64,000 bases of DNA, taken from a virus (taxonomy: Duplodnaviria; Caudoviricetes). A program made the translations under genes and the position numbers. How positions within the stretch are numbered: position 1 is the first letter of the stretch; every line of letters starts with the position of its first letter. This document shows positions 15,587-43,707 of the stretch, one piece after another. The notes below the pieces were generated by a model, which was not told the origin of the DNA, searched no databases, and was given only the letters and a program-made list of their open reading frames with translations. Location: the IMG/VR virus record IMGVR_UViG_3300010149_000008; one strand, written 5' to 3'.

Positions 15587-15874
15587 CTACTTTTTTGAAT
15601 CATGTCTTGGGACGTTTTTAAATCCTTTTTTCTTACGTTCAGACTTTTCCATTCTGTCACGCATCTTGTAAGCTCTTTGCCGATCAGCTTCGCTGTCACT
15701 CTTAGCAAGTCTAGTTGCTGTGTCTAGTTTCTTTCTTCTTTTACCTTTTGCCTTATACTGGCTTGGATATTTAGTACTTTTCTTTTTAGACTTTCGCTTT
15801 TTGCGCTTTTTCTTACGAGCTTCGTCTATCAAAGCTTCTTTTATAAATTCTTCTAATAAAAACAAATCGTTCAT
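15587..15874 (-). CDS. Basic hypothetical protein sharing its N-terminus with 15239-15577
   Basis: MNDLFLLEEFI(R/K)EALIDEARKKK in both. Confidence 0.75.
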   Translation of the reverse strand: MNDLFLLEEFIKEALIDEARKKKRKKRKSKKKSTKYPSQYKAKGKRRKKLDTATRLAKSDSEADRQRAYKMRDRMEKSERKKKGFKNVPRHDSKK

Positions 15875-15899
15875 AATAACCTCTTGTCTATAATAATTA

Positions 15900-16292
15900 T
15901 TACTTATTTTTAGTTTTATTCATTCTTTGCGTTTTTCTTTTAGACGCTTCTTTTCTTTTTTTTGCATAATCATATGCTTTTTTAAGTCTAGCTTTTACTT
16001 TTGTGTCTTTTGCATTTTTATAAGCAGCTCTTACTCTTTGATGAATTAAGTTAATTATTTGCGATTGTCTTGCATGAGATTTAGATTTAAAAGTCTTTTT
16101 AGATAAAGTATCTCTAATATCAGTCACAGTTCTAAATTTAACGCTAACAGTGTCTTTAGGATTTTCGTCTGTGTATAATCTTCTGTCACTTCCTTTTGGC
16201 TTTTTTCCAGTTCCAACTTTAGGGTCTGCTTTTTTCTTTTTTTTAGCTTCTTGAATTAAAATTTCAAGAATATAATTTTCTAAACTATTCAC
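15900..16292 (-). CDS. Basic conserved phage hypothetical protein
   Basis: DPKVGTGKKPKGSDRRLYTDENPKDTV. Confidence 0.75.
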   Translation of the reverse strand: MNSLENYILEILIQEAKKKKKADPKVGTGKKPKGSDRRLYTDENPKDTVSVKFRTVTDIRDTLSKKTFKSKSHARQSQIINLIHQRVRAAYKNAKDTKVKARLKKAYDYAKKRKEASKRKTQRMNKTKNK

Positions 16293-16614
16293 TTTCTTTC
16301 ATTCCAAAATCAATACAACACTGTGGAAAACTTTGTTCTACTTTTTTACCTATGTCAACCATTACAAAATTAACTTTAGTATCTTTTTTATCACCATCGA
16401 ATCTAACGTTTCTATTGTTTAAATCAGCTGAAACAACATTGCCTTGAAAGATTTCATTTTTTTTAGCATTAAATTTTTTAGTACTTGCTGCTTTAGCACA
16501 ACCTCCGCAACAAATTTTTATTTTTACTTTTTGCCCAGCTTTATACTTGACATCTGTAAATTTGTTTTCATTTAAAAATATTCGCCACTCGTTTAAAATT
16601 TCTTTTGTTTTCAT
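16285..16614 (-). CDS. Hypothetical protein with TKEILNEW N-terminal motif
   Basis: Overlap-coupled ORF; CC pairs. Confidence 0.7.
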   Translation of the reverse strand: MKTKEILNEWRIFLNENKFTDVKYKAGQKVKIKICCGGCAKAASTKKFNAKKNEIFQGNVVSADLNNRNVRFDGDKKDTKVNFVMVDIGKKVEQSFPQCCIDFGMKESE

Positions 16615-22266: not shown

Positions 22267-22707
22267 ATGAAAAGATTTAGTGAAAGAAGCATTGCAAGAA
22301 ATTTTCTAAATGAGATAGCTGATTCTAAAATATCATTAGGTACAGCATTCATTTCTGACGACGATACTGTTAAAGGCCAATCACATTCAGAGCTCGATCC
22401 AGACAACGACGGATATATAACACATGAGGATTTGTTTGGTCATTTCGATGTTGATAACGATGGTTTCGTTACAACAGATGAGTATGTCGACCATATTCAA
22501 TACCATGCTGATAATCCTGAGACACTTGATCATTACAGAGACGATGTACCTTGCAATACTTCTTATAACACATGTAGAACACATTATGACAATGATGATG
22601 AAGTCTTAAGGCGTTGTATTTCAAATACAGGTGCAACGTGTATGCAATCAGGAATTCAAGCTCTCATCGATGTGTTAACTGCAATGAAAAAATCAGGTAT
22701 GATTTAA
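22267..22707 (+). CDS. EF-hand calcium-binding protein
   Basis: DPDNDGYITHED and DVDNDGFVTTDE loops. Confidence 0.8.
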   Translation: MKRFSERSIARNFLNEIADSKISLGTAFISDDDTVKGQSHSELDPDNDGYITHEDLFGHFDVDNDGFVTTDEYVDHIQYHADNPETLDHYRDDVPCNTSYNTCRTHYDNDDEVLRRCISNTGATCMQSGIQALIDVLTAMKKSGMI

Positions 22708-22727
22708 TTTTAAGGAGAAATCAATAC

Positions 22728-22925
22728 ATGTTTAAAATAGGACAAAAAGTTTCGCATTTTATGACGACGCATAAGGTTGGAACTATAGTTAACATTGAAT
22801 ATACTAGAAATAATTTTATGACAACAGGTGGTACAACACAACATAAAGTTTATATAGTTGTAAAATATACAGAAGAAGACATTCAAAAATATGATTCAGG
22901 AGACTTAATAAAGATATATGATTAA
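22728..22925 (+). CDS. Hypothetical protein
   Basis: AGGAG RBS before MFKIGQKV. Confidence 0.7.
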   Translation: MFKIGQKVSHFMTTHKVGTIVNIEYTRNNFMTTGGTTQHKVYIVVKYTEEDIQKYDSGDLIKIYD

Positions 22926-23469
22926 AGAAATGTTTATTTGCTTGGCGCTGTTTGACATGAATGGTGTTGTTAATGAAAAAAATATTTGTGAAAACATAGA
23001 AACACTTTCACATATCTCTAAAGAATACAACATTGATACATATACATACGTCTCAATGTTATGGATTGAAAGTAATTTTAACAAAGAAATTGTAAGTTAC
23101 ACAGGTAAAGCTTGCGGTATATCACAAGTTGTACCAAAGTGGACAAGACCTAAAAAGTCATGCAAAGATTTAAATTCAGATATAAAATCAGCTATGATTC
23201 AAGGAGCAAGAATATTTAAAGGCTTTAAAAGATATGGTGGTAAAAGTTTAGACATTAGTTTATGTGGATATAACCAAGGATATCGATGCAAAGGTGAAAA
23301 AGAAGTCAAAAAAGGCGGTTATGACTACAGAAAAGAAGGTCTAATATACGCAAAAAAAGTTAAGTCATTTAGAAAAAAGTTGAAGTATAATGTTAGGAAG
23401 CAAAAGAGAAAAGTAAATTTATACAAAAAGAAATTAGAGCGTGCATTAAGATTATTTTATAGACTATAA
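22918..23469 (+). CDS. Lytic transglycosylase (SLT domain)
   Basis: WIESNF, GISQV, GYNQG. Confidence 0.8.
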   Translation: MIKEMFICLALFDMNGVVNEKNICENIETLSHISKEYNIDTYTYVSMLWIESNFNKEIVSYTGKACGISQVVPKWTRPKKSCKDLNSDIKSAMIQGARIFKGFKRYGGKSLDISLCGYNQGYRCKGEKEVKKGGYDYRKEGLIYAKKVKSFRKKLKYNVRKQKRKVNLYKKKLERALRLFYRL

Positions 23470-25568: not shown

Positions 25569-26663
25569 TTGAACATTGATACTTTTATTAATATTGCTAA
25601 AGATCTTCCTCCACATATTGCTGTTCTTATAAGAGGTGGAACAGGAATTGGCAAGTCTGCTATTACAGGACAGATTTCAAAAAGCTTGAAAAAACCTCTT
25701 CCACTTATCGATGTACGTGGTTCTACAATGTCTGAAGGTGATACTGGAGGTTACCCAGATATTGAGGGTATGAAGAAAAACGGAGTTATGACTTTTTGCA
25801 TGCCCGCTTGGTTCATTAGGGCTTGCAACGAGCCTGTTGTTTTATTTTTAGACGAACTTAATAGATCTTTACCCGCAGTCCAACAATCCTTCTTTCAGAT
25901 TGTTTTAGATAGACAGTTAGGAAATGATGAAAACGGCAATCCATATAATTTACACCCAGAGACTCGCGTCTTTGCAGCTGTAAACCACGGATCAGAATAT
26001 GATGTAAACGAAATGGATCCTGCTTTATTAAGACGATTTTGGACTGTTGACCTTAAGCCCGATATTGATAGCTGGATTTCTTGGGCAACAAAAAACAATA
26101 TTGACAATATGATTATTGAGTTTCTAAAAACTAGATCAATAAATTTTGCTCCTGATGCTAGTTCCATTGAGCCAGGAAACGTATTTCCTACTCCAGCTTC
26201 TTGGACTAGGTTAGATGAAGCTATAAAGTTTATGGCAATTGACTTAGAAAAAGAAGGAAAGCTAGATAAACCTCTGATATATAACATTGCTTCAGGTTTC
26301 GTTGGCACACCCGTAGCAATTGAGTTTTCTGACTACGTAGAAAAATACGAGGCTAATGTAACTCCTCAAGATATTTTAGACAGATATGATGATCTAACTA
26401 ATAAAATTAATAGATTAAGTAATGATAGACTCAATCTGCTAATTGAACGTCTAGGTGAACATGGAAGACAAAATAACTGGACTGTAACACAAGCAGAAAA
26501 TGCAGCAAAGTTTGGAAAAAGTATATCAGAAGAAATGCTTATTCATATGTGGAGCAAAATTTCTGAAACTAAAAACATTAAAACAATTCAAAACTTTCAC
26601 AAATTTATTGGCCAATACTTAGTGAAAGTTGTTAACTCAAACAAAGATTTACTAAGTAATTAA
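25569..26663 (+). CDS. MoxR-like AAA+ ATPase
   Basis: GGTGIGKS, LFLDELNR, AAVN, MDPALLRRF, PTPASW. Confidence 0.88.
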   Translation: MNIDTFINIAKDLPPHIAVLIRGGTGIGKSAITGQISKSLKKPLPLIDVRGSTMSEGDTGGYPDIEGMKKNGVMTFCMPAWFIRACNEPVVLFLDELNRSLPAVQQSFFQIVLDRQLGNDENGNPYNLHPETRVFAAVNHGSEYDVNEMDPALLRRFWTVDLKPDIDSWISWATKNNIDNMIIEFLKTRSINFAPDASSIEPGNVFPTPASWTRLDEAIKFMAIDLEKEGKLDKPLIYNIASGFVGTPVAIEFSDYVEKYEANVTPQDILDRYDDLTNKINRLSNDRLNLLIERLGEHGRQNNWTVTQAENAAKFGKSISEEMLIHMWSKISETKNIKTIQNFHKFIGQYLVKVVNSNKDLLSN

Positions 26664-26688
26664 TAATAAAGTTTATAGTTTTGTATGC

Positions 26689-26718
26689 GTGCAAATGACT
26701 ATAAAATTAGTGTATAAT
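26689..26718 (+). promoter_or_regulatory. Promoter (GTGCAA-N18-TATAAT)
   Basis: Recurrent motif, followed by AGGAGG RBS. Confidence 0.75.
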
Positions 26719-26735
26719 ATCATTAAGGAGGATAA

Positions 26736-28040
26736 ATGAAAAAAGAAACAACTTCTAATGGAATTAGTAGATCAATAAATGTTTCCCAATCAGATATTGA
26801 TAACTTTAAACTACAAAGTCATCTAGTAGACCTACTTTGGGACGAACCTTTTTATAGTAGAATTTTAAGAAGCTTAAATAAAATTGAAACTGAAGAGATA
26901 CCAACTGCAGGAGTTCTTTGTAAAGACGGCGAAATTACAATGTGGTGGAATAGAAGATTTCTTGCTTCACTTCCAAAAAACAAAGTTAAAGGTTTAATTA
27001 AACATGAGTGTCTTCATCTAGCTTTTAAGCATACAACTGATAGAAGAAATTCTCCTCATATTATTTGGAACTATGCAACTGATTTAGCTATTAATTCAAT
27101 TATACCCTATGATGAGTTACCTAAAGGTGGTTTAGTTCCTGGATATCATTTAGAGCCTTTAACAAATGATGATATGGAAAATATGACAAAAGAAAACATT
27201 GACATGTTTAATGTTCTTTCAAGTCTTATTGCATCTTTTCCTCAAAACAAAACTTCTGAATATTACTTTGAAAAACTCATGCAAAATGAAACAATCAAAG
27301 AACATGCAGAAAAATCAAGTAGTTTCTTATCAGATGGCTTTCCTGATGTTGGCTTTGATGACCATGAAGGTTGGGATGAGATGAGTGCTGAAGCACGAGA
27401 AATGATGAAAGAAAAGTTAGGAGAAATATTAAAGTCTGCCGTAGAAGAATCAAATCAAAAAGGATGGGGTTCAATATCTTCTCAAGTCGCAATTACTCTA
27501 AACAAAATGATATCAAAGACAATTAAATGGGAAGATGTTTTAAAAAGATTTTGTGGTTTTACGAGAAGAGACGATAGACAATCATCGACTAAGAGGCTTA
27601 ACAGAAAATATCCTGCAATACATCCAGGATCAAAAAAAATATACAAACCTAGAATTGCTGTATATGTTGATGAAAGTGGTTCAATGCCAGCATCAATACT
27701 TGAAAATTTCTATGGAGAGCTAAATAGTTTAAGCTCTAGAACAGACTTTTATATGTATAAGTTTGATGCTGTAGTAGATGACAAGTCAGGTTTTCTTTGG
27801 AAAAAAGGTAAAAGACTTAAGATAGAAAGGACAATGCACGGAGGCACAAGCTTTCAATCTGTAACTAAACATGCAATCAAAAACAAAAAGAACTTTGACG
27901 GCTATATAATCTTTACAGATGGTTGTGCACCTAAACCTTCACCTTCCCATGGCTTAAAGAGATGTTGGCTCTTGATGCCTAATTGTGAACTAAGTTTTAA
28001 AAAAAATAATTCAGATATTTTAATTCAAATGAAAAGTTAA
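26736..28040 (+). CDS. HExxH metallopeptidase + vWA domain protein (DUF2201-like)
   Basis: KHECLH, WNYATDLAIN, VYVDESGSM, GGTSF, FTDG. Confidence 0.85.
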   Translation: MKKETTSNGISRSINVSQSDIDNFKLQSHLVDLLWDEPFYSRILRSLNKIETEEIPTAGVLCKDGEITMWWNRRFLASLPKNKVKGLIKHECLHLAFKHTTDRRNSPHIIWNYATDLAINSIIPYDELPKGGLVPGYHLEPLTNDDMENMTKENIDMFNVLSSLIASFPQNKTSEYYFEKLMQNETIKEHAEKSSSFLSDGFPDVGFDDHEGWDEMSAEAREMMKEKLGEILKSAVEESNQKGWGSISSQVAITLNKMISKTIKWEDVLKRFCGFTRRDDRQSSTKRLNRKYPAIHPGSKKIYKPRIAVYVDESGSMPASILENFYGELNSLSSRTDFYMYKFDAVVDDKSGFLWKKGKRLKIERTMHGGTSFQSVTKHAIKNKKNFDGYIIFTDGCAPKPSPSHGLKRCWLLMPNCELSFKKNNSDILIQMKS

Positions 28041-30115: not shown

Positions 30116-30943
30116 ATGAAACTTATATTATTATTAATTTTTTCGTCTTTACTTTTAAATTGTTCTGACGAATTGTCAAATTATCAAGGTTACGAAAATG
30201 ACTTTAGGAGTAAGTCATACTTCGAAGTTAAATATGTTGGTGCTACTTGTGATTCGCAATGTATCTATTCAAGTTACGCTGTAACTTATAATTTGCAAGA
30301 AAAACAGTTTGACTGTGTTGAAGGACCTTGTGCTTGTGTAAAAGAAGGTGATGCACATACTTTATGTAGTGATAAGCCGTTAGCTGAAGATTTGTGGTCG
30401 CAACAAGAAAGCATACAACCACATAATAATCAAGTAATAGAAATACCTTATTATAATCAATATGACAACGCTAACTACCCGCATTCAACATGTCAAAATA
30501 CTAGTATTGCAATGGTATTAAGCTACTTTCAATATAACATTCAACCAGATGAGATATTTTATAGGTGGGGTAAAGATATTGCACAGTCGCCTTCCGGATT
30601 AAATCAAGTATATACAAGCTATTCTGCAAACAGTGAAATTAATACTTATACTAATGCTACTCCTGAAGACTTGCGATCTGCGTTAGATAAAGGTTACATT
30701 GCAATTGTTCACGGATATTTTACATCATCAGGACATGTAATTGTCGTTAGGGGCTATGATAAGCAGCATTACTACGTTAATGATCCTGCAGGCAAATGGG
30801 ATGGTTGCTTTAAATGTGGATACACTACAGGCAATTACAATGGTATTACTAAATACTCAAAAATATCATTTGAAAACGCAGTATTCACTTCAAATGGCAG
30901 CTCTTATTTACCCGGTTGGATCCATCTTATAAAAGGTAGTTAA
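30116..30943 (+). CDS. Lipoprotein with C39-like cysteine peptidase domain
   Basis: Lipobox-like LLLNC; IPYYNQ, TCQNTSIAMVL, GHVIVVRGYD, VNDP. Confidence 0.8.
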   Translation: MKLILLLIFSSLLLNCSDELSNYQGYENDFRSKSYFEVKYVGATCDSQCIYSSYAVTYNLQEKQFDCVEGPCACVKEGDAHTLCSDKPLAEDLWSQQESIQPHNNQVIEIPYYNQYDNANYPHSTCQNTSIAMVLSYFQYNIQPDEIFYRWGKDIAQSPSGLNQVYTSYSANSEINTYTNATPEDLRSALDKGYIAIVHGYFTSSGHVIVVRGYDKQHYYVNDPAGKWDGCFKCGYTTGNYNGITKYSKISFENAVFTSNGSSYLPGWIHLIKGS

Positions 30944-30944
30944 A

Positions 30945-31619
30945 ATGAAGATTTTATTTAATGTCTGTTTAATTTTTATTATGTTCATGATTAATTTATC
31001 ATACGGTCAAAGTTATGAATGCGACAATAATTTTGGTGATTGTGGAACACCAAATCAAAGTGGTGGAGGAGGTGGAGGTGGATCGATACTAATTGCAAAT
31101 ACTGATTTAGGCGACACCTACCAGCATGCTGACGACTATGATGATGACGGTATTGAAGATCCTTCTGACAATTGTCCTAGGATTATGAATCCTGATCAGC
31201 TTGATCGAGACGGTGATGGAGTAGGTGATAGCTGTGATAATTGTCTTTCTATATGGAATAAAAAGCAAGAAAACACAGATGGCGATGACAAAGGAGACTT
31301 TTGCGACGAAGACATTGATAACGACAGCATATTAAACTATTATGACGAATGTCCTTATCACTGGGGTAACGATACATGTTTCGCATTAAATGTTTTAGAA
31401 AATTTTAATAACAATAGTGATTACGAAGATGAACACGCTGAAATAGGAAATACAAAAAGTTTTAAAGAAAATGACATGTTTATCAAAGCAAGTGATAAAC
31501 ATGTCAAATTAAATCAAAGCTGTAATTCATCGAGATATCCAGATTTTTTCAATGTTTTTGCTTTAATCTCTATAATAATGCTAGTTATTAAAAAGAAATG
31601 TAATGAACGAAAAATTTAA
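30945..31619 (+). CDS. Secreted thrombospondin type-3 repeat protein with C-terminal membrane anchor
   Basis: Signal peptide; DDDGIEDPSDNCP, DRDGDGVGDSCDNC; SC...ALISIIMLVIKKK tail. Confidence 0.8.
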   Translation: MKILFNVCLIFIMFMINLSYGQSYECDNNFGDCGTPNQSGGGGGGGSILIANTDLGDTYQHADDYDDDGIEDPSDNCPRIMNPDQLDRDGDGVGDSCDNCLSIWNKKQENTDGDDKGDFCDEDIDNDSILNYYDECPYHWGNDTCFALNVLENFNNNSDYEDEHAEIGNTKSFKENDMFIKASDKHVKLNQSCNSSRYPDFFNVFALISIIMLVIKKKCNERKI

Positions 31620-39409: not shown

Positions 39410-40249
39410 ATGAAATTTATAGTATTTTTTTTGAGTTTATTATTATTAGCTTTTGACATTCCAATTGAAAAGATAAAGTCTTCTTACGGTCATATAGAAG
39501 CTTATTATAAAGTTCAACCGAAACAAAGTTTGGATTGTGAAAATTGCTTTACATCGATGGAGGCTTTTCAAGAGATAAGATCAATAAACAAAAAGCTAAT
39601 GCAAATGGCGTATGTCAAAGCTTCTTCTTTTATAGTTAAAAAGAAAAAATCAGAAACTATTTCTATTACTTCTGAACATGTTTGCAAAGAATTAAGCGTC
39701 TTTTTAAGAGATCAAAAGTTCAAAGCTTTAGCAAAAGATTTGATGAAGACAATGGCAAAAACATATGCAGACAGTGCTTTATATTCAGAGATATACAGAA
39801 CTTATGAAATCGTTCCAAAAGCTTATATATATTCTTTTGAAGGAGTAAAGCATGAAATAACATCGATAATACTCTCAGACAGTAAAATTGATACATGTGC
39901 AATTAAATCTTTAGGCGTCTGGGGAAAAGAAGTAACTTTTGCAAAGAGTGGTTGTTTATATGAAAAAATATTTAATATGTCTAGCTCAGGGGGATATTAT
40001 CATAAAGGATCAGTAGCTCTAAGAGAAGGATATGTTAACGGAAGAGTTGAAGAGTTAAGAATACAAGAAAGAAAGTTTAAAGAAGTAAATCTGTATACTT
40101 TGCTAGTTAAACCAGGCGCATCAGGATCTGCTGTATTCAATGTTAAAGGAGAAGTATGTGGATCAGTTAATATATCTTTTATAAAAGTTGATTTAAGTGC
40201 TGGTGCTTCTTATTCTGATCTAACTCAATTTTATAAACAATTGCGTTAA
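39410..40249 (+). CDS. Secreted trypsin-like serine protease
   Basis: Signal peptide; ITSEHVC, IDTCAI, PGASGSAVFN triad. Confidence 0.8.
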   Translation: MKFIVFFLSLLLLAFDIPIEKIKSSYGHIEAYYKVQPKQSLDCENCFTSMEAFQEIRSINKKLMQMAYVKASSFIVKKKKSETISITSEHVCKELSVFLRDQKFKALAKDLMKTMAKTYADSALYSEIYRTYEIVPKAYIYSFEGVKHEITSIILSDSKIDTCAIKSLGVWGKEVTFAKSGCLYEKIFNMSSSGGYYHKGSVALREGYVNGRVEELRIQERKFKEVNLYTLLVKPGASGSAVFNVKGEVCGSVNISFIKVDLSAGASYSDLTQFYKQLR

Positions 40250-40481: not shown

Positions 40482-40733
40482 TTATTTTACCTTTCTTGCG
40501 CAATTTTTTGAATTCTGTATTTGACTAACATTATGTCCATGAAGAACTAAAAGTCTGCATACTTTTATTAGACTACTAGCTTGATACTTTGATTTAATTT
40601 TACAGCTTTTCTTTACATTATGTATGCACTTATGATACGCTGGTTTTCTTTTTAAATTATTCGTATTTAATCCATACTCAGCCAAAGCAGTTGCTGATAT
40701 TGACAACGATAAAAAAACTATTAATTTCATCAT
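40482..40733 (-). CDS. Small secreted hypothetical protein
   Basis: Signal-peptide-like N-terminus. Confidence 0.6.
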   Translation of the reverse strand: MMKLIVFLSLSISATALAEYGLNTNNLKRKPAYHKCIHNVKKSCKIKSKYQASSLIKVCRLLVLHGHNVSQIQNSKNCARKVK

Positions 40734-40993
40734 TCTATATTCCAGTTTTTACCGGGTAGATTATATTCACCGTCATCTTCCTTAAATCTATTTTTAATAT
40801 CAAACCTTTCAGCAACTGTCTGAGAAACATTGACAGCGACTTTGTGACTAGAAAAAGTTTTTGTAATTACTTTGTTTCTAAAAGTTACAGTAAGAAGATG
40901 ATCATTACTTAAGTGCATTGTACCCCAATTTACGTTTGACCTTTTATGTAAATTATATCCTTCTTCTGTTTTCATCCAGATTAATCTTTTCAT
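40730..40993 (-). CDS. Hypothetical protein
   Basis: ATGA overlap. Confidence 0.65.
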   Translation of the reverse strand: MKRLIWMKTEEGYNLHKRSNVNWGTMHLSNDHLLTVTFRNKVITKTFSSHKVAVNVSQTVAERFDIKNRFKEDDGEYNLPGKNWNIE

Positions 40994-41470: not shown

Positions 41471-42067
41471 TTAGCCCCAAGCACTTCCTTGTTTGTTTTT
41501 AAATGACTTTTTACTTTTTGAAGTAGCTGAATTACGTACGTCAGGCCATAAATAATATACTGTATAACCATGTTCAGACTTATATACAGCTTTTTGTTTT
41601 CTACCGTTAATATCAATTTCTCCATAGTAATATTTTTGCGGGTCTCCTTGATAAGGTCCAGCTGGCCATGGTACGTCGAAGCTTCCATCATTACTGACAC
41701 CTATGCCATTATTTATTCCAGCTTCGTATATTAAATCGTCTTCTGTCATTACAATATCACCAACATCAACATCACTGGGGAAGCCAGACATACCTTTGAT
41801 ATGCTTTGTTAGACTTTCAATTTCAATTTGATAACCATATTCTTCATTAATCATTTCTTCATCACCATGCTGATCAAACCTGTCGTAGCAATAAAAAATA
41901 TCTTTACCATGAATATCTTCTAACTCTTTCAACAAATCTTTTGCTTTTTTTGTAGGATTGTGTCTAGTTCTTGTTATAGATCCTCCTTGAGATTCGTTAA
42001 CTTTACTTTTAAATTCGAACTTTCGCCATTCTTTTAAGATTTTTTTTGTCTCATTAGTTTTTTTCAT
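41471..42067 (-). CDS. Hypothetical protein with TKxxLKEW N-tag and GSAWG C-tag
   Basis: Termini shared with 42964-43707. Confidence 0.75.
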   Translation of the reverse strand: MKKTNETKKILKEWRKFEFKSKVNESQGGSITRTRHNPTKKAKDLLKELEDIHGKDIFYCYDRFDQHGDEEMINEEYGYQIEIESLTKHIKGMSGFPSDVDVGDIVMTEDDLIYEAGINNGIGVSNDGSFDVPWPAGPYQGDPQKYYYGEIDINGRKQKAVYKSEHGYTVYYLWPDVRNSATSKSKKSFKNKQGSAWG

Positions 42068-42104
42068 GTTGCATCCTTTATTTGCTTTCTATAATAAATA
42101 TAAT

Positions 42105-42335
42105 CTATATATATAAAATTACGTATTTACCAAACCATATATCAAAAGTACTAATTAAATCTTCATAGTTACTCATCTTCATTGTTTTGATAATATCTTC
42201 TATTATTATTTTGTCATAACCTAGCTGTTTTCCCAGGCTTTCAGCAAGTGACATCAAGTAATATGCATTACCATTAGGCCCACTAAGGTCAACTTCTATG
42301 TGTCTGGCAGGTTTTTCTTCTATACTTTTAATCAT
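42105..42335 (-). CDS. Conserved small phage protein
   Basis: DLSGPNGNAYYLM...NYEDLI..FD..FG. Confidence 0.75.
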   Translation of the reverse strand: MIKSIEEKPARHIEVDLSGPNGNAYYLMSLAESLGKQLGYDKIIIEDIIKTMKMSNYEDLISTFDIWFGKYVILYI

Positions 42336-42338
42336 ATT

Positions 42339-42602
42339 TCATTCCTTAAAGCTTATAAGTTTAAACATGTCATTTGATTTGCTGCTAAATAACTCACTTG
42401 CATACACTGACTTAAATTTAATCTTTCTGTTATTTATTAAGAATACTAAAGACCTTTCTTTATAGGTTGCTCCAAAGTTATTATCTAAAACTAAAAGTAT
42501 ACTTCCTTCTTTTATTACTTTATGATTAAAATGATCTTGCCAAAAGTTAAAAGTTTTTTTAACAAACAACAAGTCGTTTTCTTTTACTTCGTTTATGATC
42601 AT
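42339..42602 (-). CDS. Hypothetical protein
   Basis: Co-oriented ORF. Confidence 0.6.
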   Translation of the reverse strand: MIINEVKENDLLFVKKTFNFWQDHFNHKVIKEGSILLVLDNNFGATYKERSLVFLINNRKIKFKSVYASELFSSKSNDMFKLISFKE

Positions 42603-42610
42603 AAAATTAT

Positions 42611-42877
42611 CTATTTAACTATAAAACTATTCTTGCCTTTTTTAAAGCTTTGATAAACTGATTTTTCTACTAAAGCCCAGTATTTTTTACAACTTACATT
42701 AGCAAACATTTTTTCTCTATTTCTATAATGATCTATACCATTAAGAAACTTAATGCAGCCTAAAGTTTTTACTTCTTTTTCAAAGACACCTATACATACA
42801 GCATAAACATAATCTTCTAACTCTAGACAGCTTTTTAGATAGTTTATTTCTCGAGAAAGCTGTTTATAATTATTCAA
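42611..42877 (-). CDS. Hypothetical protein
   Basis: AGGAG upstream. Confidence 0.6.
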   Translation of the reverse strand: MNNYKQLSREINYLKSCLELEDYVYAVCIGVFEKEVKTLGCIKFLNGIDHYRNREKMFANVSCKKYWALVEKSVYQSFKKGKNSFIVK

Positions 42878-42963
42878 TACATATCTCCTTAATGTTATGT
42901 CAAATCTAATTAAACCTAAAATAGATAGTTATAGATATACTATGAAAAAGGTAATAGACGATT

Positions 42964-43707
42964 ATGAGAAAAGTCATTCAGACAAAAGAAGTTTTAAAAG
43001 AATGGAATTCTTTTTTAATAAAAGAATCAAATGCTGATAGAGTAAAAAGGATGATTGATGATCTAGAAAGCTTTGGAAAACAAATTCATATTACAGAGCC
43101 AAGTAAAAGCGTTATTGTAATTACTTATGGAAAAAATTACACTAGCGGTAATCGAGATGCATCAAAAAACTTATTTGGACAGATACGCTGTTCAGACACT
43201 TCAGCGTCATATGATGATAAACAAAAAGGCATTGGAGCAGGAGAAACAAACTCTTGTTGGGAAGTTGATTTAACTAGTCACACTACTAAGGGAATGGGTC
43301 CTTTGCTTTATGAAGTGCTTATTGAATATATTAGCAATATAAAAAGAGCTTCGCTTAAACCAGATGCATCCTCAGTTTCTGATTTAGCAAAAAATGTGTG
43401 GAATAAGTTTAACGATAGACCGCAGAACGATGTTAAAAAAATTCAGTTAGATGTTGGTGAAAAAACTGTATATAGATTTAAGAGATACAAAAACCAAGAT
43501 GTTAAACAACTAACACCTGACAATGTTGAAGATGATACGATGCAGGATTCATCAATAAGAGACAAAGGTTTTGATGCTTGGGAAGAAAGTGCTTTAAGTA
43601 AAGCCTATAAAAAACTAGATATGCCGATTATAGATGAACTTAAAGCTAGAAATCTAATTATAATGCCTAAAACATTTAAAAGCAAACTAGGCAGTGCATG
43701 GGGTTAA
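42964..43707 (+). CDS. GNAT-like protein with TKxxLKEW N-tag and GSAWG C-tag
   Basis: KGMGPLLYE, SVSDLAKNVW, QLD, LTP..DD, SALSKAYKK. Confidence 0.6.
   Translation: MRKVIQTKEVLKEWNSFLIKESNADRVKRMIDDLESFGKQIHITEPSKSVIVITYGKNYTSGNRDASKNLFGQIRCSDTSASYDDKQKGIGAGETNSCWEVDLTSHTTKGMGPLLYEVLIEYISNIKRASLKPDASSVSDLAKNVWNKFNDRPQNDVKKIQLDVGEKTVYRFKRYKNQDVKQLTPDNVEDDTMQDSSIRDKGFDAWEESALSKAYKKLDMPIIDELKARNLIIMPKTFKSKLGSAWG

What the first reader, a model, noticed from the sequence alone, without database searches (positions are those of the whole stretch)
41471..43707. Two proteins with different cores share both an N-terminal tag and a C-terminal GSAWG tag
Seen: 41471(-) begins ...TKKILKEWRKF...NES and ends KSFKNKQGSAWG-stop; 42964(+) begins ...TKEVLKEWNSF...KES and ends KTFKSKLGSAWG-stop. 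I see no similarity between their cores (one GNAT-like, one unknown); 16285 shares the N-tag only. Inference: a modular addressing system with an N-terminal packaging/cleavage signal and a C-terminal aromatic docking or ejection signal grafted onto interchangeable cargo enzymes. I know of no description of this C-tag.
Basis: partly seen in the sequence, partly recalled or inferred. Interest (0 to 1): 0.75.

Follow-up and report, generated by a model that had tools for sequence, protein, structure and literature searches.

The report
Shared two-ended tags on phage proteins
In an uncultured marine jumbo phage, three proteins with apparently unrelated cores carry the same short N-terminal leader and the same roughly 12-residue C-terminal tail; the tail changes on all of them together between phage lineages, so it is probably a docking handle for one common, still unidentified partner.

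Summary
The ORFs at 41471-42067(-) and 42964-43707(+) share an N-terminal helix (TKxILKEW..F...E) and a C-terminal K-x-F-K-x-K-x-G-S-A-W-G-stop. Profile comparison aligns nothing else.

- **Cores:** the 247-aa core is GNAT-like. The 198-aa core matches no known fold.
- **Third carrier:** a third family with both tags lies about 7.6 kb beyond the window end. ORF 16285 has only the leader.
- **Tags as appendages:** both tags are low-confidence add-ons to confident AF2 cores. They are conserved across marine metagenome homologues, while the linker before the tail is variable.
- **New result, tail versions by lineage:** one relative carries P-L-D-F-E-G-S-A/V-W on three genes, encoded by an identical 21-nt block with unrelated flanks. 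An acidic version (RFGDIEDGxGWD) occurs in two families. The constant part is F...G-x-x-W.
- **No further carriers:** none was found in 1.84 billion representative proteins, IMG/VR, JGI metagenomes, prokaryote genomes or deposited phages.

Best reading (about 0.4): the leader is a T4-type capsid-targeting and protease-cleavage signal, and the tail is a tethered docking peptide that stays on the mature cargo. No partner was identified and no packaging was shown.

This stretch was also read in another window of the scan (e1-5335457). Different shared C-terminal tags were noted in other genomes.

The parts
41471..42067 (-). Family 1 gene (P0001, 198 aa): leader, polar linker, core of unknown fold, Ser/Lys-rich linker, C-terminal tail
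   Evidence: 17 homologues aligned. AF2 pLDDT 72, core residues 30-177. No fold match: Foldseek E >= 0.05, VIA best Z 3.1.
41993..42067 (-). N-terminal leader of P0001 (residues 1-25), ending V-N-E; Glu25 is invariant
   Evidence: 27 bits. Predicted helix 3-21 with pLDDT 56-59, followed by a low-confidence linker.
41471..41509 (-). C-terminal tail of P0001 (KSFKNKQGSAWG plus stop)
   Evidence: 19.3 bits. Disordered, pLDDT about 41.
42964..43707 (+). Family 2 gene (P0002, 247 aa): leader, GNAT-like core, short Pro linker, C-terminal tail
   Evidence: AF2 pLDDT 82. Nearly all of the VIA top-50 hits are GNAT-fold acyltransferases, Z 5-6.6. Foldseek hits are weak but mostly GNAT. No Pfam hit.
42964..43026 (+). 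N-terminal leader of P0002 (residues 1-21), ending I-K-E
   Evidence: 31 bits. Helix 4-20 with pLDDT below 50. This is the only part aligned to families 1 and 3 by hhalign.
43669..43707 (+). C-terminal tail of P0002 (KTFKSKLGSAWG plus stop)
   Evidence: 23.8 bits. Coil, pLDDT about 40.
16285..16614 (-). P0003 (109 aa): same leader class (residues 1-16, ending L-N-E), no C-terminal tail
   Evidence: 22 bits for the leader; no tail hit.
42086..42102 (-). Promoter-like 17-mer ATATTTATTATAGAAAG, 20-27 nt upstream of P0001. It is identical to the one before another leader-bearing gene outside the window.
   Evidence: Function not tested.
42929..42937 (+). Related TTATAGATA motif 35 nt upstream of P0002
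   Evidence: Function not tested.

Best explanation
Three proteins of this phage carry two independent short address peptides: family 1 (unknown fold), family 2 (GNAT-like acyltransferase) and family 3 (unknown fold, outside the window).

The N-terminal amphipathic helix ends in hydrophobic-x-Glu. It works like the T4 capsid-targeting sequence: it takes the protein into the assembling prohead core and is then cut off by the head protease (inferred).

The C-terminal tail sits on a disordered polar linker. Its core is Phe, a few residues, then Gly-x-x-Trp at or near the end. It has no protease site, so it stays on the mature protein. It acts as a tethered short linear motif that plugs all three proteins into one common site. 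That site is most likely inside the virion (capsid inner wall, core or portal), where it would hold or position the cargo after the leader is removed (inferred).

The tail evolves as a unit across the three genes. Lineages carry different versions, and short-patch DNA copying spreads one version to all carriers (shown).

Shown: the tags exist, are conserved, are modular and evolve in concert.
Inferred: cleavage, packaging, and the nature and place of the partner.
For: - The tags are specific and conserved.
- The cores are not detectably related. One is GNAT-like and the other is not.
- Both tags are low-pLDDT appendages to confident cores. The tail follows a variable polar linker, which is the usual layout of a docking peptide.
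- The Glu that ends the leader is invariant or nearly so (Glu25, Glu21, Glu20), with V/L/I three residues before it. This fits cleavage after Glu by T4-type proteases (PMC5694885) and the T4 capsid-targeting sequence (PMC3012670).
- Concerted evolution of the tail. The window genome has the basic version on all three families. L040 has PLDFEGS[AV]W on one family 1 gene and two family 3-type genes, encoded by an identical 21-nt block (including a CCG Pro codon, which I judge unusual in this AT-rich DNA; codon usage was not measured) with unrelated flanks. The acidic RFGDIEDG[ED]GWD version occurs in family 2 (P0019/21) and family 3 (P0095).
- In the window and in L012 the tags differ at many synonymous sites yet keep the peptide. 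That is selection on the peptide, not only recent copying.
- The leaders do not change with the tail version, so the two ends serve different partners.
- Precedents for short C-terminal capsid-docking peptides shared by unrelated proteins: 80alpha scaffold and SaPI1 CpmB (PMC5644958), and encapsulin targeting peptides (PMC8346489).
Against: - There is no protein-level data of any kind.
- I did not see the head protease, capsid, scaffold or portal genes of this genome. They lie more than 80 kb from the window. Their T4 type rests on earlier unchecked notes.
- The tail resembles no known capsid-docking motif.
- Its charge flips from +3 to about -5 between lineages. A single conserved pocket explains that only if the charged flanks do not matter.
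- Family 2 has lost the tail in several lineages, so it is dispensable for that enzyme.
- Only three families carry it, while the earlier notes report a dozen or more (in one note dozens of) leader-bearing proteins in this genome, so it is not a general loading signal.
- The layout (short C-terminal epitope on a divergent linker, partly acidic and hydrophobic) fits clamp-type hub binding in the infected cell equally well (PMC2988020).
Confidence: 0.4

Rival explanations
1. The tail is a hub-binding epitope used in the cytoplasm, before packaging or after injection, not in the virion. It would recruit the three proteins to a phage or host hub. Candidates are a sliding clamp, an SSB-type partner, the phage GroEL, the phage MoxR-VWA pair, or a host target. 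This is how T4 gp43, gp33 and gp55 share one interchangeable clamp-binding C-terminus.
For: - The architecture matches the T4 clamp epitope: a short conserved C-terminal segment after a divergent, unstructured linker, shared by unrelated proteins (PMC2988020).
- Several tail versions are acidic and hydrophobic and end in an aromatic residue.
- The tail is retained on the mature protein.
- The window encodes candidate readers: GroEL, and an AAA_5 MoxR-type ATPase next to a DUF2201 VWA-like protein.
- Different tail versions in different lineages would fit a fast-changing host target.
Against: - All carriers also bear the capsid-type leader.
- The split sigma factor and the other DNA-handling proteins in the 84 kb I could scan do not carry the tail.
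- The window version is basic, unlike clamp or SSB-type tails.
- No host-genome protein ends in the motif.
- No candidate reader was tested successfully.
Confidence: 0.25
2. The shared ends have no separate function as addresses. They would be leftovers of common ancestry (families 1 and 3 as very distant paralogues) or of mosaic recombination that happened to fuse the same gene ends to different bodies.
For: - Families 1 and 3 have the same length and layout. hhalign joins them end to end when the tags are kept (probability 85%).
- MAFFT stacks their cores.
- The 21-nt identical block in L040 shows that the tail spreads by DNA copying.
- Family 2 can lose the tail.
Against: - With the tags trimmed, all core pairs have about 1% probability.
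- Family 2 is GNAT-like, and no GNAT appears among the family 1 fold hits.
- The tail peptide is kept through many synonymous changes, while the adjacent linker drifts freely.
- A new version replaced the old one on all carriers in a lineage. Neutral relics would not do that.
Confidence: 0.1
3. The tails bind one another, so that the three proteins form one hetero-oligomeric complex. Only the tails themselves would then have to change together.
For: - Each lineage has one tail version on all carriers.
- No separate receptor has been found.
- The carrier genes are neighbours: families 1 and 2 in the window, and families 1 and 3 in L040 and L041.
Against: - Tails of like charge (all basic or all acidic) would repel each other.
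- A stable self-interface from ten disordered residues would be unusual.
- Family 2 occurs without the tail, with no family 1 gene in the fetched ±10 kb neighbourhood of those contigs.
Confidence: 0.05

Closest known systems
T4 capsid-targeting sequence (CTS) of internal proteins IPI-III and Alt, removed by prohead protease gp21 (PMC3012670, PMC5694885); also the N-terminal capsid signal of P1 DarB (PMC9024508)
   Same: A short N-terminal peptide is shared by unrelated proteins and ends in a hydrophobic-x-Glu site. It is a flexible appendage before the folded body.
   Different: The sequence differs: here a helix of about 20 residues built on [LI]-x-E-[WF]-x-x-[FY]. The CTS says nothing about a C-terminal tail. 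Cleavage, packaging and the protease of this genome were not verified here.
C-terminal 'helix-and-hook' (RIIK) capsid-binding motif shared by the phage 80alpha scaffolding protein and SaPI1 CpmB (PMC5644958)
   Same: Two otherwise different proteins share a C-terminal peptide of about 16 residues, and it is interchangeable between them. In the known case it docks on the major capsid protein.
   Different: There is no sequence likeness. Here the carriers look like enzymes or cargo, not scaffolds. There are three carriers, and the tail comes in several lineage-specific versions. Binding to the capsid is only a hypothesis.
Encapsulin cargo-loading (targeting) peptides, family 1 consensus SDGSLGIGSLKRS (PMC8346489)
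   Same: A short, Gly-containing C-terminal peptide on a flexible linker addresses diverse enzymes to the interior of an HK97-fold shell.
   Different: The motif is different (F...G-x-x-W). The shell here would be a DNA-filled phage head. The carriers also have an N-terminal leader.
T4 sliding-clamp-binding C-terminal epitopes of gp43, gp33 and gp55 (PMC2988020)
   Same: In a T4-type phage, unrelated proteins share a short, interchangeable C-terminal epitope that is joined by a divergent, unstructured linker.
   Different: Those epitopes are acidic and hydrophobic and sit on replication and transcription proteins without leaders. The window version is basic with a Trp and sits on leader-bearing proteins. 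No clamp gene was seen in the sequence available.

Membership tests
T4-type capsid-targeting / prohead-protease propeptide | Short peptide at the extreme N-terminus, outside the folded body | tested here: met
   Predicted helices 3-21 and 4-20 with low pLDDT precede confident cores. hhalign aligns only this part between families.
T4-type capsid-targeting / prohead-protease propeptide | Ends in a (L/I/V)-x-Glu cleavage motif | tested here: met
   V/L/I-N-E in family 1, I/L/V-K/N-E in family 2, L/I/M-N/K/S-E in family 3. The Glu is invariant or nearly invariant. The motif is as given in PMC5694885.
T4-type capsid-targeting / prohead-protease propeptide | The genome encodes a gp21-type (S77) prohead protease and T4-type head genes | not tested
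   These genes lie more than 80 kb outside the window. The record could not be searched. The claim rests only on earlier notes e1-5335408, e1-5335444 and e1-5335458.
T4-type capsid-targeting / prohead-protease propeptide | The leader is cut off and the protein is found in the head | not testable with these tools
   This needs proteomics or reporter fusions.
C-terminal shell-docking peptides (scaffold/CpmB hook, encapsulin targeting peptide) | Short conserved peptide at the extreme C-terminus on a flexible linker, shared by different proteins | tested here: met
C-terminal shell-docking peptides (scaffold/CpmB hook, encapsulin targeting peptide) | Sequence likeness to a known motif (RIIK hook; GSLGIGSLK) | tested here: not met
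   Compared by eye with the motifs given in PMC5644958 and PMC8346489. No Pfam or PHROG hit covers the tail.
C-terminal shell-docking peptides (scaffold/CpmB hook, encapsulin targeting peptide) | Binds the major capsid protein | not tested
GNAT acyltransferase superfamily (P0002 core) | GNAT fold | tested here: met
   Nearly all of the VIA top-50 hits are GNAT-fold acyltransferases: Z 5.0-6.6, 100-145 residues aligned, rmsd 3-5 A for most. The Foldseek list is dominated by GNATs at E 0.03-0.5. The Z values are modest, so the fold assignment is probable rather than certain.
GNAT acyltransferase superfamily (P0002 core) | Sequence-profile membership and the acetyl-CoA loop Q/R-x-x-G-x-G/A | tested here: inconclusive
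   No Pfam family at E <= 1. An invariant T-x-x-G-M-G-P-L-L-Y-E stretch sits at the matching place, but with Thr instead of Gln/Arg.
Clamp- or SSB-type acidic C-terminal tails | Acidic and hydrophobic tail on replication or transcription proteins | tested here: not met
   The window version has net charge about +3. Its carriers are a GNAT-like protein and two unknowns, all with capsid-type leaders. Some other lineages do have acidic versions, so a working likeness is not excluded.

The most novel reading that the evidence does not exclude
A tailed phage uses a second, C-terminal address code. This would be an encapsulin-like cargo-docking peptide that fixes a chosen subset of injected enzymes to a site inside the DNA-filled head after the N-terminal loading leader is cut off. 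The peptide and its pocket would change together between phage lineages, and the new version would spread to all carriers by short-patch recombination.
Probability: 0.2. Interest if true: 0.8.

Novelty: new variant of a known kind. Interest (0 to 1): 0.55.

Why it matters
N-terminal capsid-targeting leaders are known from T4 and P1. Short C-terminal docking peptides are known from scaffolds, encapsulins and clamp clients.

I found no description of the combination seen here: a small set of phage cargo-like enzymes with both a leader and a concertedly evolving C-terminal handle. If the handle docks cargo in the head, it would show how large phages sort and hold different classes of injected proteins. 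It would also give a second, orthogonal tag for loading foreign proteins into capsids.

If the handle instead reads a cellular hub, it marks an unrecognised recruitment site in an abundant, uncultured group of marine phages. In both cases the lineage-specific versions give a ready-made covariation signal for finding the partner.

Tried and rejected
- **Family libraries:** Pfam and PHROGs gave nothing for P0001, P0002, P0003 or P0047.
- **Deposited phages:** tblastn of P0001, P0002 and the last 24 residues of P0002 found no match.
- **IMG/VR:** the basic tail pattern gave 0 hits. The PLDFEG version gave 1 chance hit. The acidic version gave 0 hits. Only two distant family 2 relatives were found, both without the tail.
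- **JGI metagenome scan** for K.FK...G.AWG-stop: 16 loci. Three are family 1 or 2 members and the rest are chance matches in short ORFs, with no new core.
- **Prokaryote genome scan:** 2 loci, neither in frame. So there is no sign that the tail copies a host motif.
- **Profile of all three families against 1.84 billion representative proteins:** 40 hits, all distant members of the same three families.
I could not scan the other ~170 kb for more carriers, nor fetch the protease, capsid, scaffold, portal or polymerase genes.
- **Complex prediction** on the three tagged proteins together returned 'no answer'. This is not evidence either way.
- **ESM Atlas:** nothing usable for P0001 or P0047.
- **Fold of P0001:** no match by Foldseek or VIA.
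- **Further lineages:** contigs with P0110 and P0093 were too short to show a second carrier. The large contig with P0095 had no DNA available.
- **Ideas considered and dropped:**
  - A double-glycine (C39) cleavage site in the tail: the hydrophobic spacing is wrong, and cleavage would release only three residues.
  - A MinD-like membrane-targeting helix: the acidic versions do not fit.
  - A prohead-protease site inside the tail: the basic version has no Glu.
  - A nucleic-acid-level element: the window copies differ at synonymous sites.
- **Promoter-like motif:** I did not pursue an enrichment test. Hydrophobic-x-Glu in the first 30 residues is too common by chance to serve as a label.
Full report
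**What the window is.**
The window is AT-rich (about 30% GC). It carries five tRNA genes and densely packed small ORFs. Its phage-type genes include:
- GroEL;
- a sigma-70-type factor, a 5'-3' exonuclease, an ATP-dependent DNA ligase, and a MoxR-type AAA_5 ATPase;
- a D12 adenine methyltransferase;
- a UvdE endonuclease, an SLT lytic transglycosylase, and a VWA-like DUF2201 protein.

The window is part of a 256,231-nt marine metagenome contig, in reverse orientation. Its large proteins have only distant relatives among deposited phages. It is therefore an uncultured marine jumbo phage.

**The observation.**
ORF 41471-42067(-) gives P0001 (198 aa) and ORF 42964-43707(+) gives P0002 (247 aa). 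BLASTP aligns only the first ~30 residues and the last 12 residues (9/12 identical). A six-frame motif scan of the window finds the C-terminal G-S-A-W-G-stop only in these two. It finds the leader only in these two plus ORF 16285-16614(-) (P0003).

I built HMMs from the tags and ran them over all six-frame ORFs of the window and 19 related loci. The leader scores 20-33 bits and the tail 19-24 bits on true carriers. Everything else scores 7 bits or less. At the DNA level the two tail-coding stretches differ at five positions, three of them synonymous.

**A third carrier.**
I therefore fetched the DNA beyond the window end. The tail HMM picked out L018:1750-2343(-), protein P0047 (197 aa). It starts M-D-N-K-E-F-K-L-L-I-E-G-F-D-K-F-L-L-S-E and ends K-K-Q-F-K-S-S-L-G-G-A-W-G. 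Its leader belongs to the same class, with Phe in place of Trp, and hhalign aligns it to the family 2 leader. The gene lies about 7.6 kb past the window end, between two kinase-like paralogues.

**Conservation.**
All homologues come from marine metagenomes (Tara, GOS, ENA, JGI).
- Family 2 (21 aligned): the leader is present in all. The basic tail is present in about half, is replaced by an acidic tail in three, and is absent in the most divergent members.
- Family 1 (17 aligned): 14 have the basic tail and three have an acidic one.
- Family 3 (28 aligned): 20 have the basic tail. Others have Phe for Trp or two to four extra residues.

In tail-bearing members the tail has a mean major-residue frequency of 0.73-0.83. 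The 12 residues before it score 0.37-0.58, and in families 1 and 3 those residues are about 85% polar or small. The Glu that ends the leader is invariant in families 1 and 3 and nearly so in family 2.

**Are the cores related?**
hhalign of the family profiles aligns only the leader between family 2 and the other two families. Families 1 and 3 align end to end (probability 85%), but that alignment is pinned by the two tags. With the tags trimmed, all three core pairs fall to about 1% probability.

The AF2 models show the following:
- P0002 has a confident core (pLDDT 82). Residues 1-22 form a helix with pLDDT below 50, and residues 238-247 are coil with pLDDT below 50.
- P0001 has a moderately confident core (pLDDT 72). 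It has a leader helix, a low-confidence linker and a disordered tail from residue 178.

The P0002 core matches GNAT-fold acyltransferases almost exclusively (VIA Z 5.0-6.6; weak Foldseek hits). The P0001 core matches nothing, and no GNAT appears among its hits.

**Are there more carriers?**
No further core turned up in any search:
- A profile of 30 members of the three families against 1.84 billion representative proteins gave 40 hits, all distant members of the same three families.
- DNA-pattern scans for the tail found only family 1 and 2 members in JGI metagenomes.
- The same scans found nothing in IMG/VR and nothing in frame in 185,579 prokaryote genomes.
- Deposited phages have no match.

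I could not scan the remaining ~170 kb of this genome.

**The new result: tail versions are shared across families within a lineage.**
The distant hits showed that the tail comes in several versions. On contig L040, four adjacent leader-bearing genes include one family 1 gene and two family 3-type genes. All three of those end in P-L-D-F-E-G-S-[A/V]-W, one of them followed by 20 further residues. The DNA for P-L-D-F-E-G-S is an identical 21-nt block in all three genes and includes a CCG Pro codon, which I judge unusual in this AT-rich DNA (codon usage was not measured). The flanks on both sides are unrelated.

An acidic version, R-F-G-D-I-E-D-G-[E/D]-G-W-D, occurs in family 2 (P0019/21) and in family 3 (P0095). 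The family 3 gene there sits next to a family 1 gene of the type that ends in an acidic tail.

Where families 1 and 2 share a fetched contig (the window and L012), both carry the basic version; three more family 1/2 pairs that appear to share a contig, judged only by matching longest-contig lengths, also do. There the codons differ at many synonymous sites.

Three conclusions follow:
- The peptide is under selection.
- New versions spread among the carrier genes by short-patch DNA copying with sharp borders.
- A lineage ends up with one version on all carriers.

The constant features are a Phe, then a Gly-x-x-Trp (rarely Phe) at or near the C-terminus. The flanking charge ranges from about +3 to about -5. 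The leaders are the same whatever the tail version, so the two ends are read independently.

**Interpretation.**
The leader has the formal features of a T4-type capsid-targeting and protease-cleaved propeptide: an N-terminal helix ending in hydrophobic-x-Glu and shared by unrelated proteins (PMC3012670, PMC5694885, PMC9024508). Earlier notes of this scan say that the genome has T4-type head genes and many such leaders. I could not check the protease myself.

The tail has no such cleavage site, so it should remain on the mature protein. Its layout is a short conserved peptide on a variable disordered linker, shared by unrelated proteins and interchangeable as a cassette. That is the layout of a docking motif. 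Three known examples share it:
- the T4 clamp-binding epitopes of gp43, gp33 and gp55 (PMC2988020);
- the 80alpha scaffold / SaPI1 CpmB capsid hook (PMC5644958);
- encapsulin targeting peptides (PMC8346489).

All carriers also bear the capsid-type leader. I therefore favour a docking site inside the head (about 0.4 for the whole reading, including that the tail is a functional handle). A cytoplasmic or host hub is the main rival (0.25). Neutral relic (0.1) and tail-to-tail assembly (0.05) are less likely. The window offers candidate readers that remain untested: GroEL, the MoxR-VWA pair, a C39-like peptidase and a syntenic trypsin-like protein.

**Novelty.**
Shared terminal address peptides are a known kind of system. 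This scan has also met other shared C-terminal tags in other genomes, and this very stretch was read in another window (e1-5335457). I did not find this motif in print, nor its pairing with a capsid-type leader, nor its concerted, cassette-like evolution across three protein families. I rate it a new variant of a known kind, of moderate interest, limited by the small number of carriers and the unidentified partner.

Noticed in passing
window 25569-28040 (+): An AAA_5 (MoxR-type) ATPase is directly followed by a protein with a DUF2201_N metallopeptidase-like domain and a DUF2201 VWA-like domain. This is a phage-encoded MoxR-VWA pair and a possible reader of terminal peptides.
   Followed up: partly
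window 30116-31619 (+): A 275-aa protein with a Peptidase_C39-like domain (E 9e-17) is followed by a 224-aa protein with thrombospondin type-3 (calcium-binding) repeats.
   Followed up: no
window 39410-40249 (+): A trypsin-like (Trypsin_2) protein has a hydrophobic, signal-peptide-like N-terminus. In the window it is encoded against the direction of its neighbours. It stays close to the tagged genes in all related contigs that cover the region.
   Followed up: partly
window 42086-42102 (-); L018:3700-3725 (-); window 15880-15893 (-): An identical 17-mer, ATATTTATTATAGAAAG, lies 20-27 nt upstream of P0001 and of another leader-bearing gene outside the window. A close variant lies before ORF 15587-15874. 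It is a candidate shared (late?) promoter of leader-bearing genes.
   Followed up: partly
L018:906-1718 (-) and L018:2400-3239 (-): Two paralogous proteins of about 275 aa (called kinase-like in earlier notes; no Pfam hit here) have a different leader class. They flank the third tail-bearing gene.
   Followed up: partly
L018:1-749 (+) and L018:3990-4360: An ORF of the DUF481 family (a family I know as bacterial outer-membrane proteins) lies on the phage contig. There is also a stretch whose spurious-ORF translations look GC-rich, unlike the AT-rich rest (GC not measured).
   Followed up: no
window 22267-23469 (+): An EF-hand protein that starts with an F-L-N-E-type leader is followed by an SLT lytic transglycosylase. 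PHROGs links the latter to internal virion proteins with an endolysin domain.
   Followed up: no
L038:6861-9784 (+): In a more distant relative, the family 2 gene (acidic tail) sits in a row of leader-bearing genes: one kinase-like gene and two with R-R-x-I-x-x-V-I-S-E leaders. The tagged genes therefore move between the two gene clusters in different lineages.
   Followed up: partly
window 40730-40993 (-): A small ORF (87 aa) ends in G-K-N-W-N-I-E, a loose match to G-x-x-W near the C-terminus. It has no leader and no tail HMM hit, so it is probably chance.
   Followed up: no
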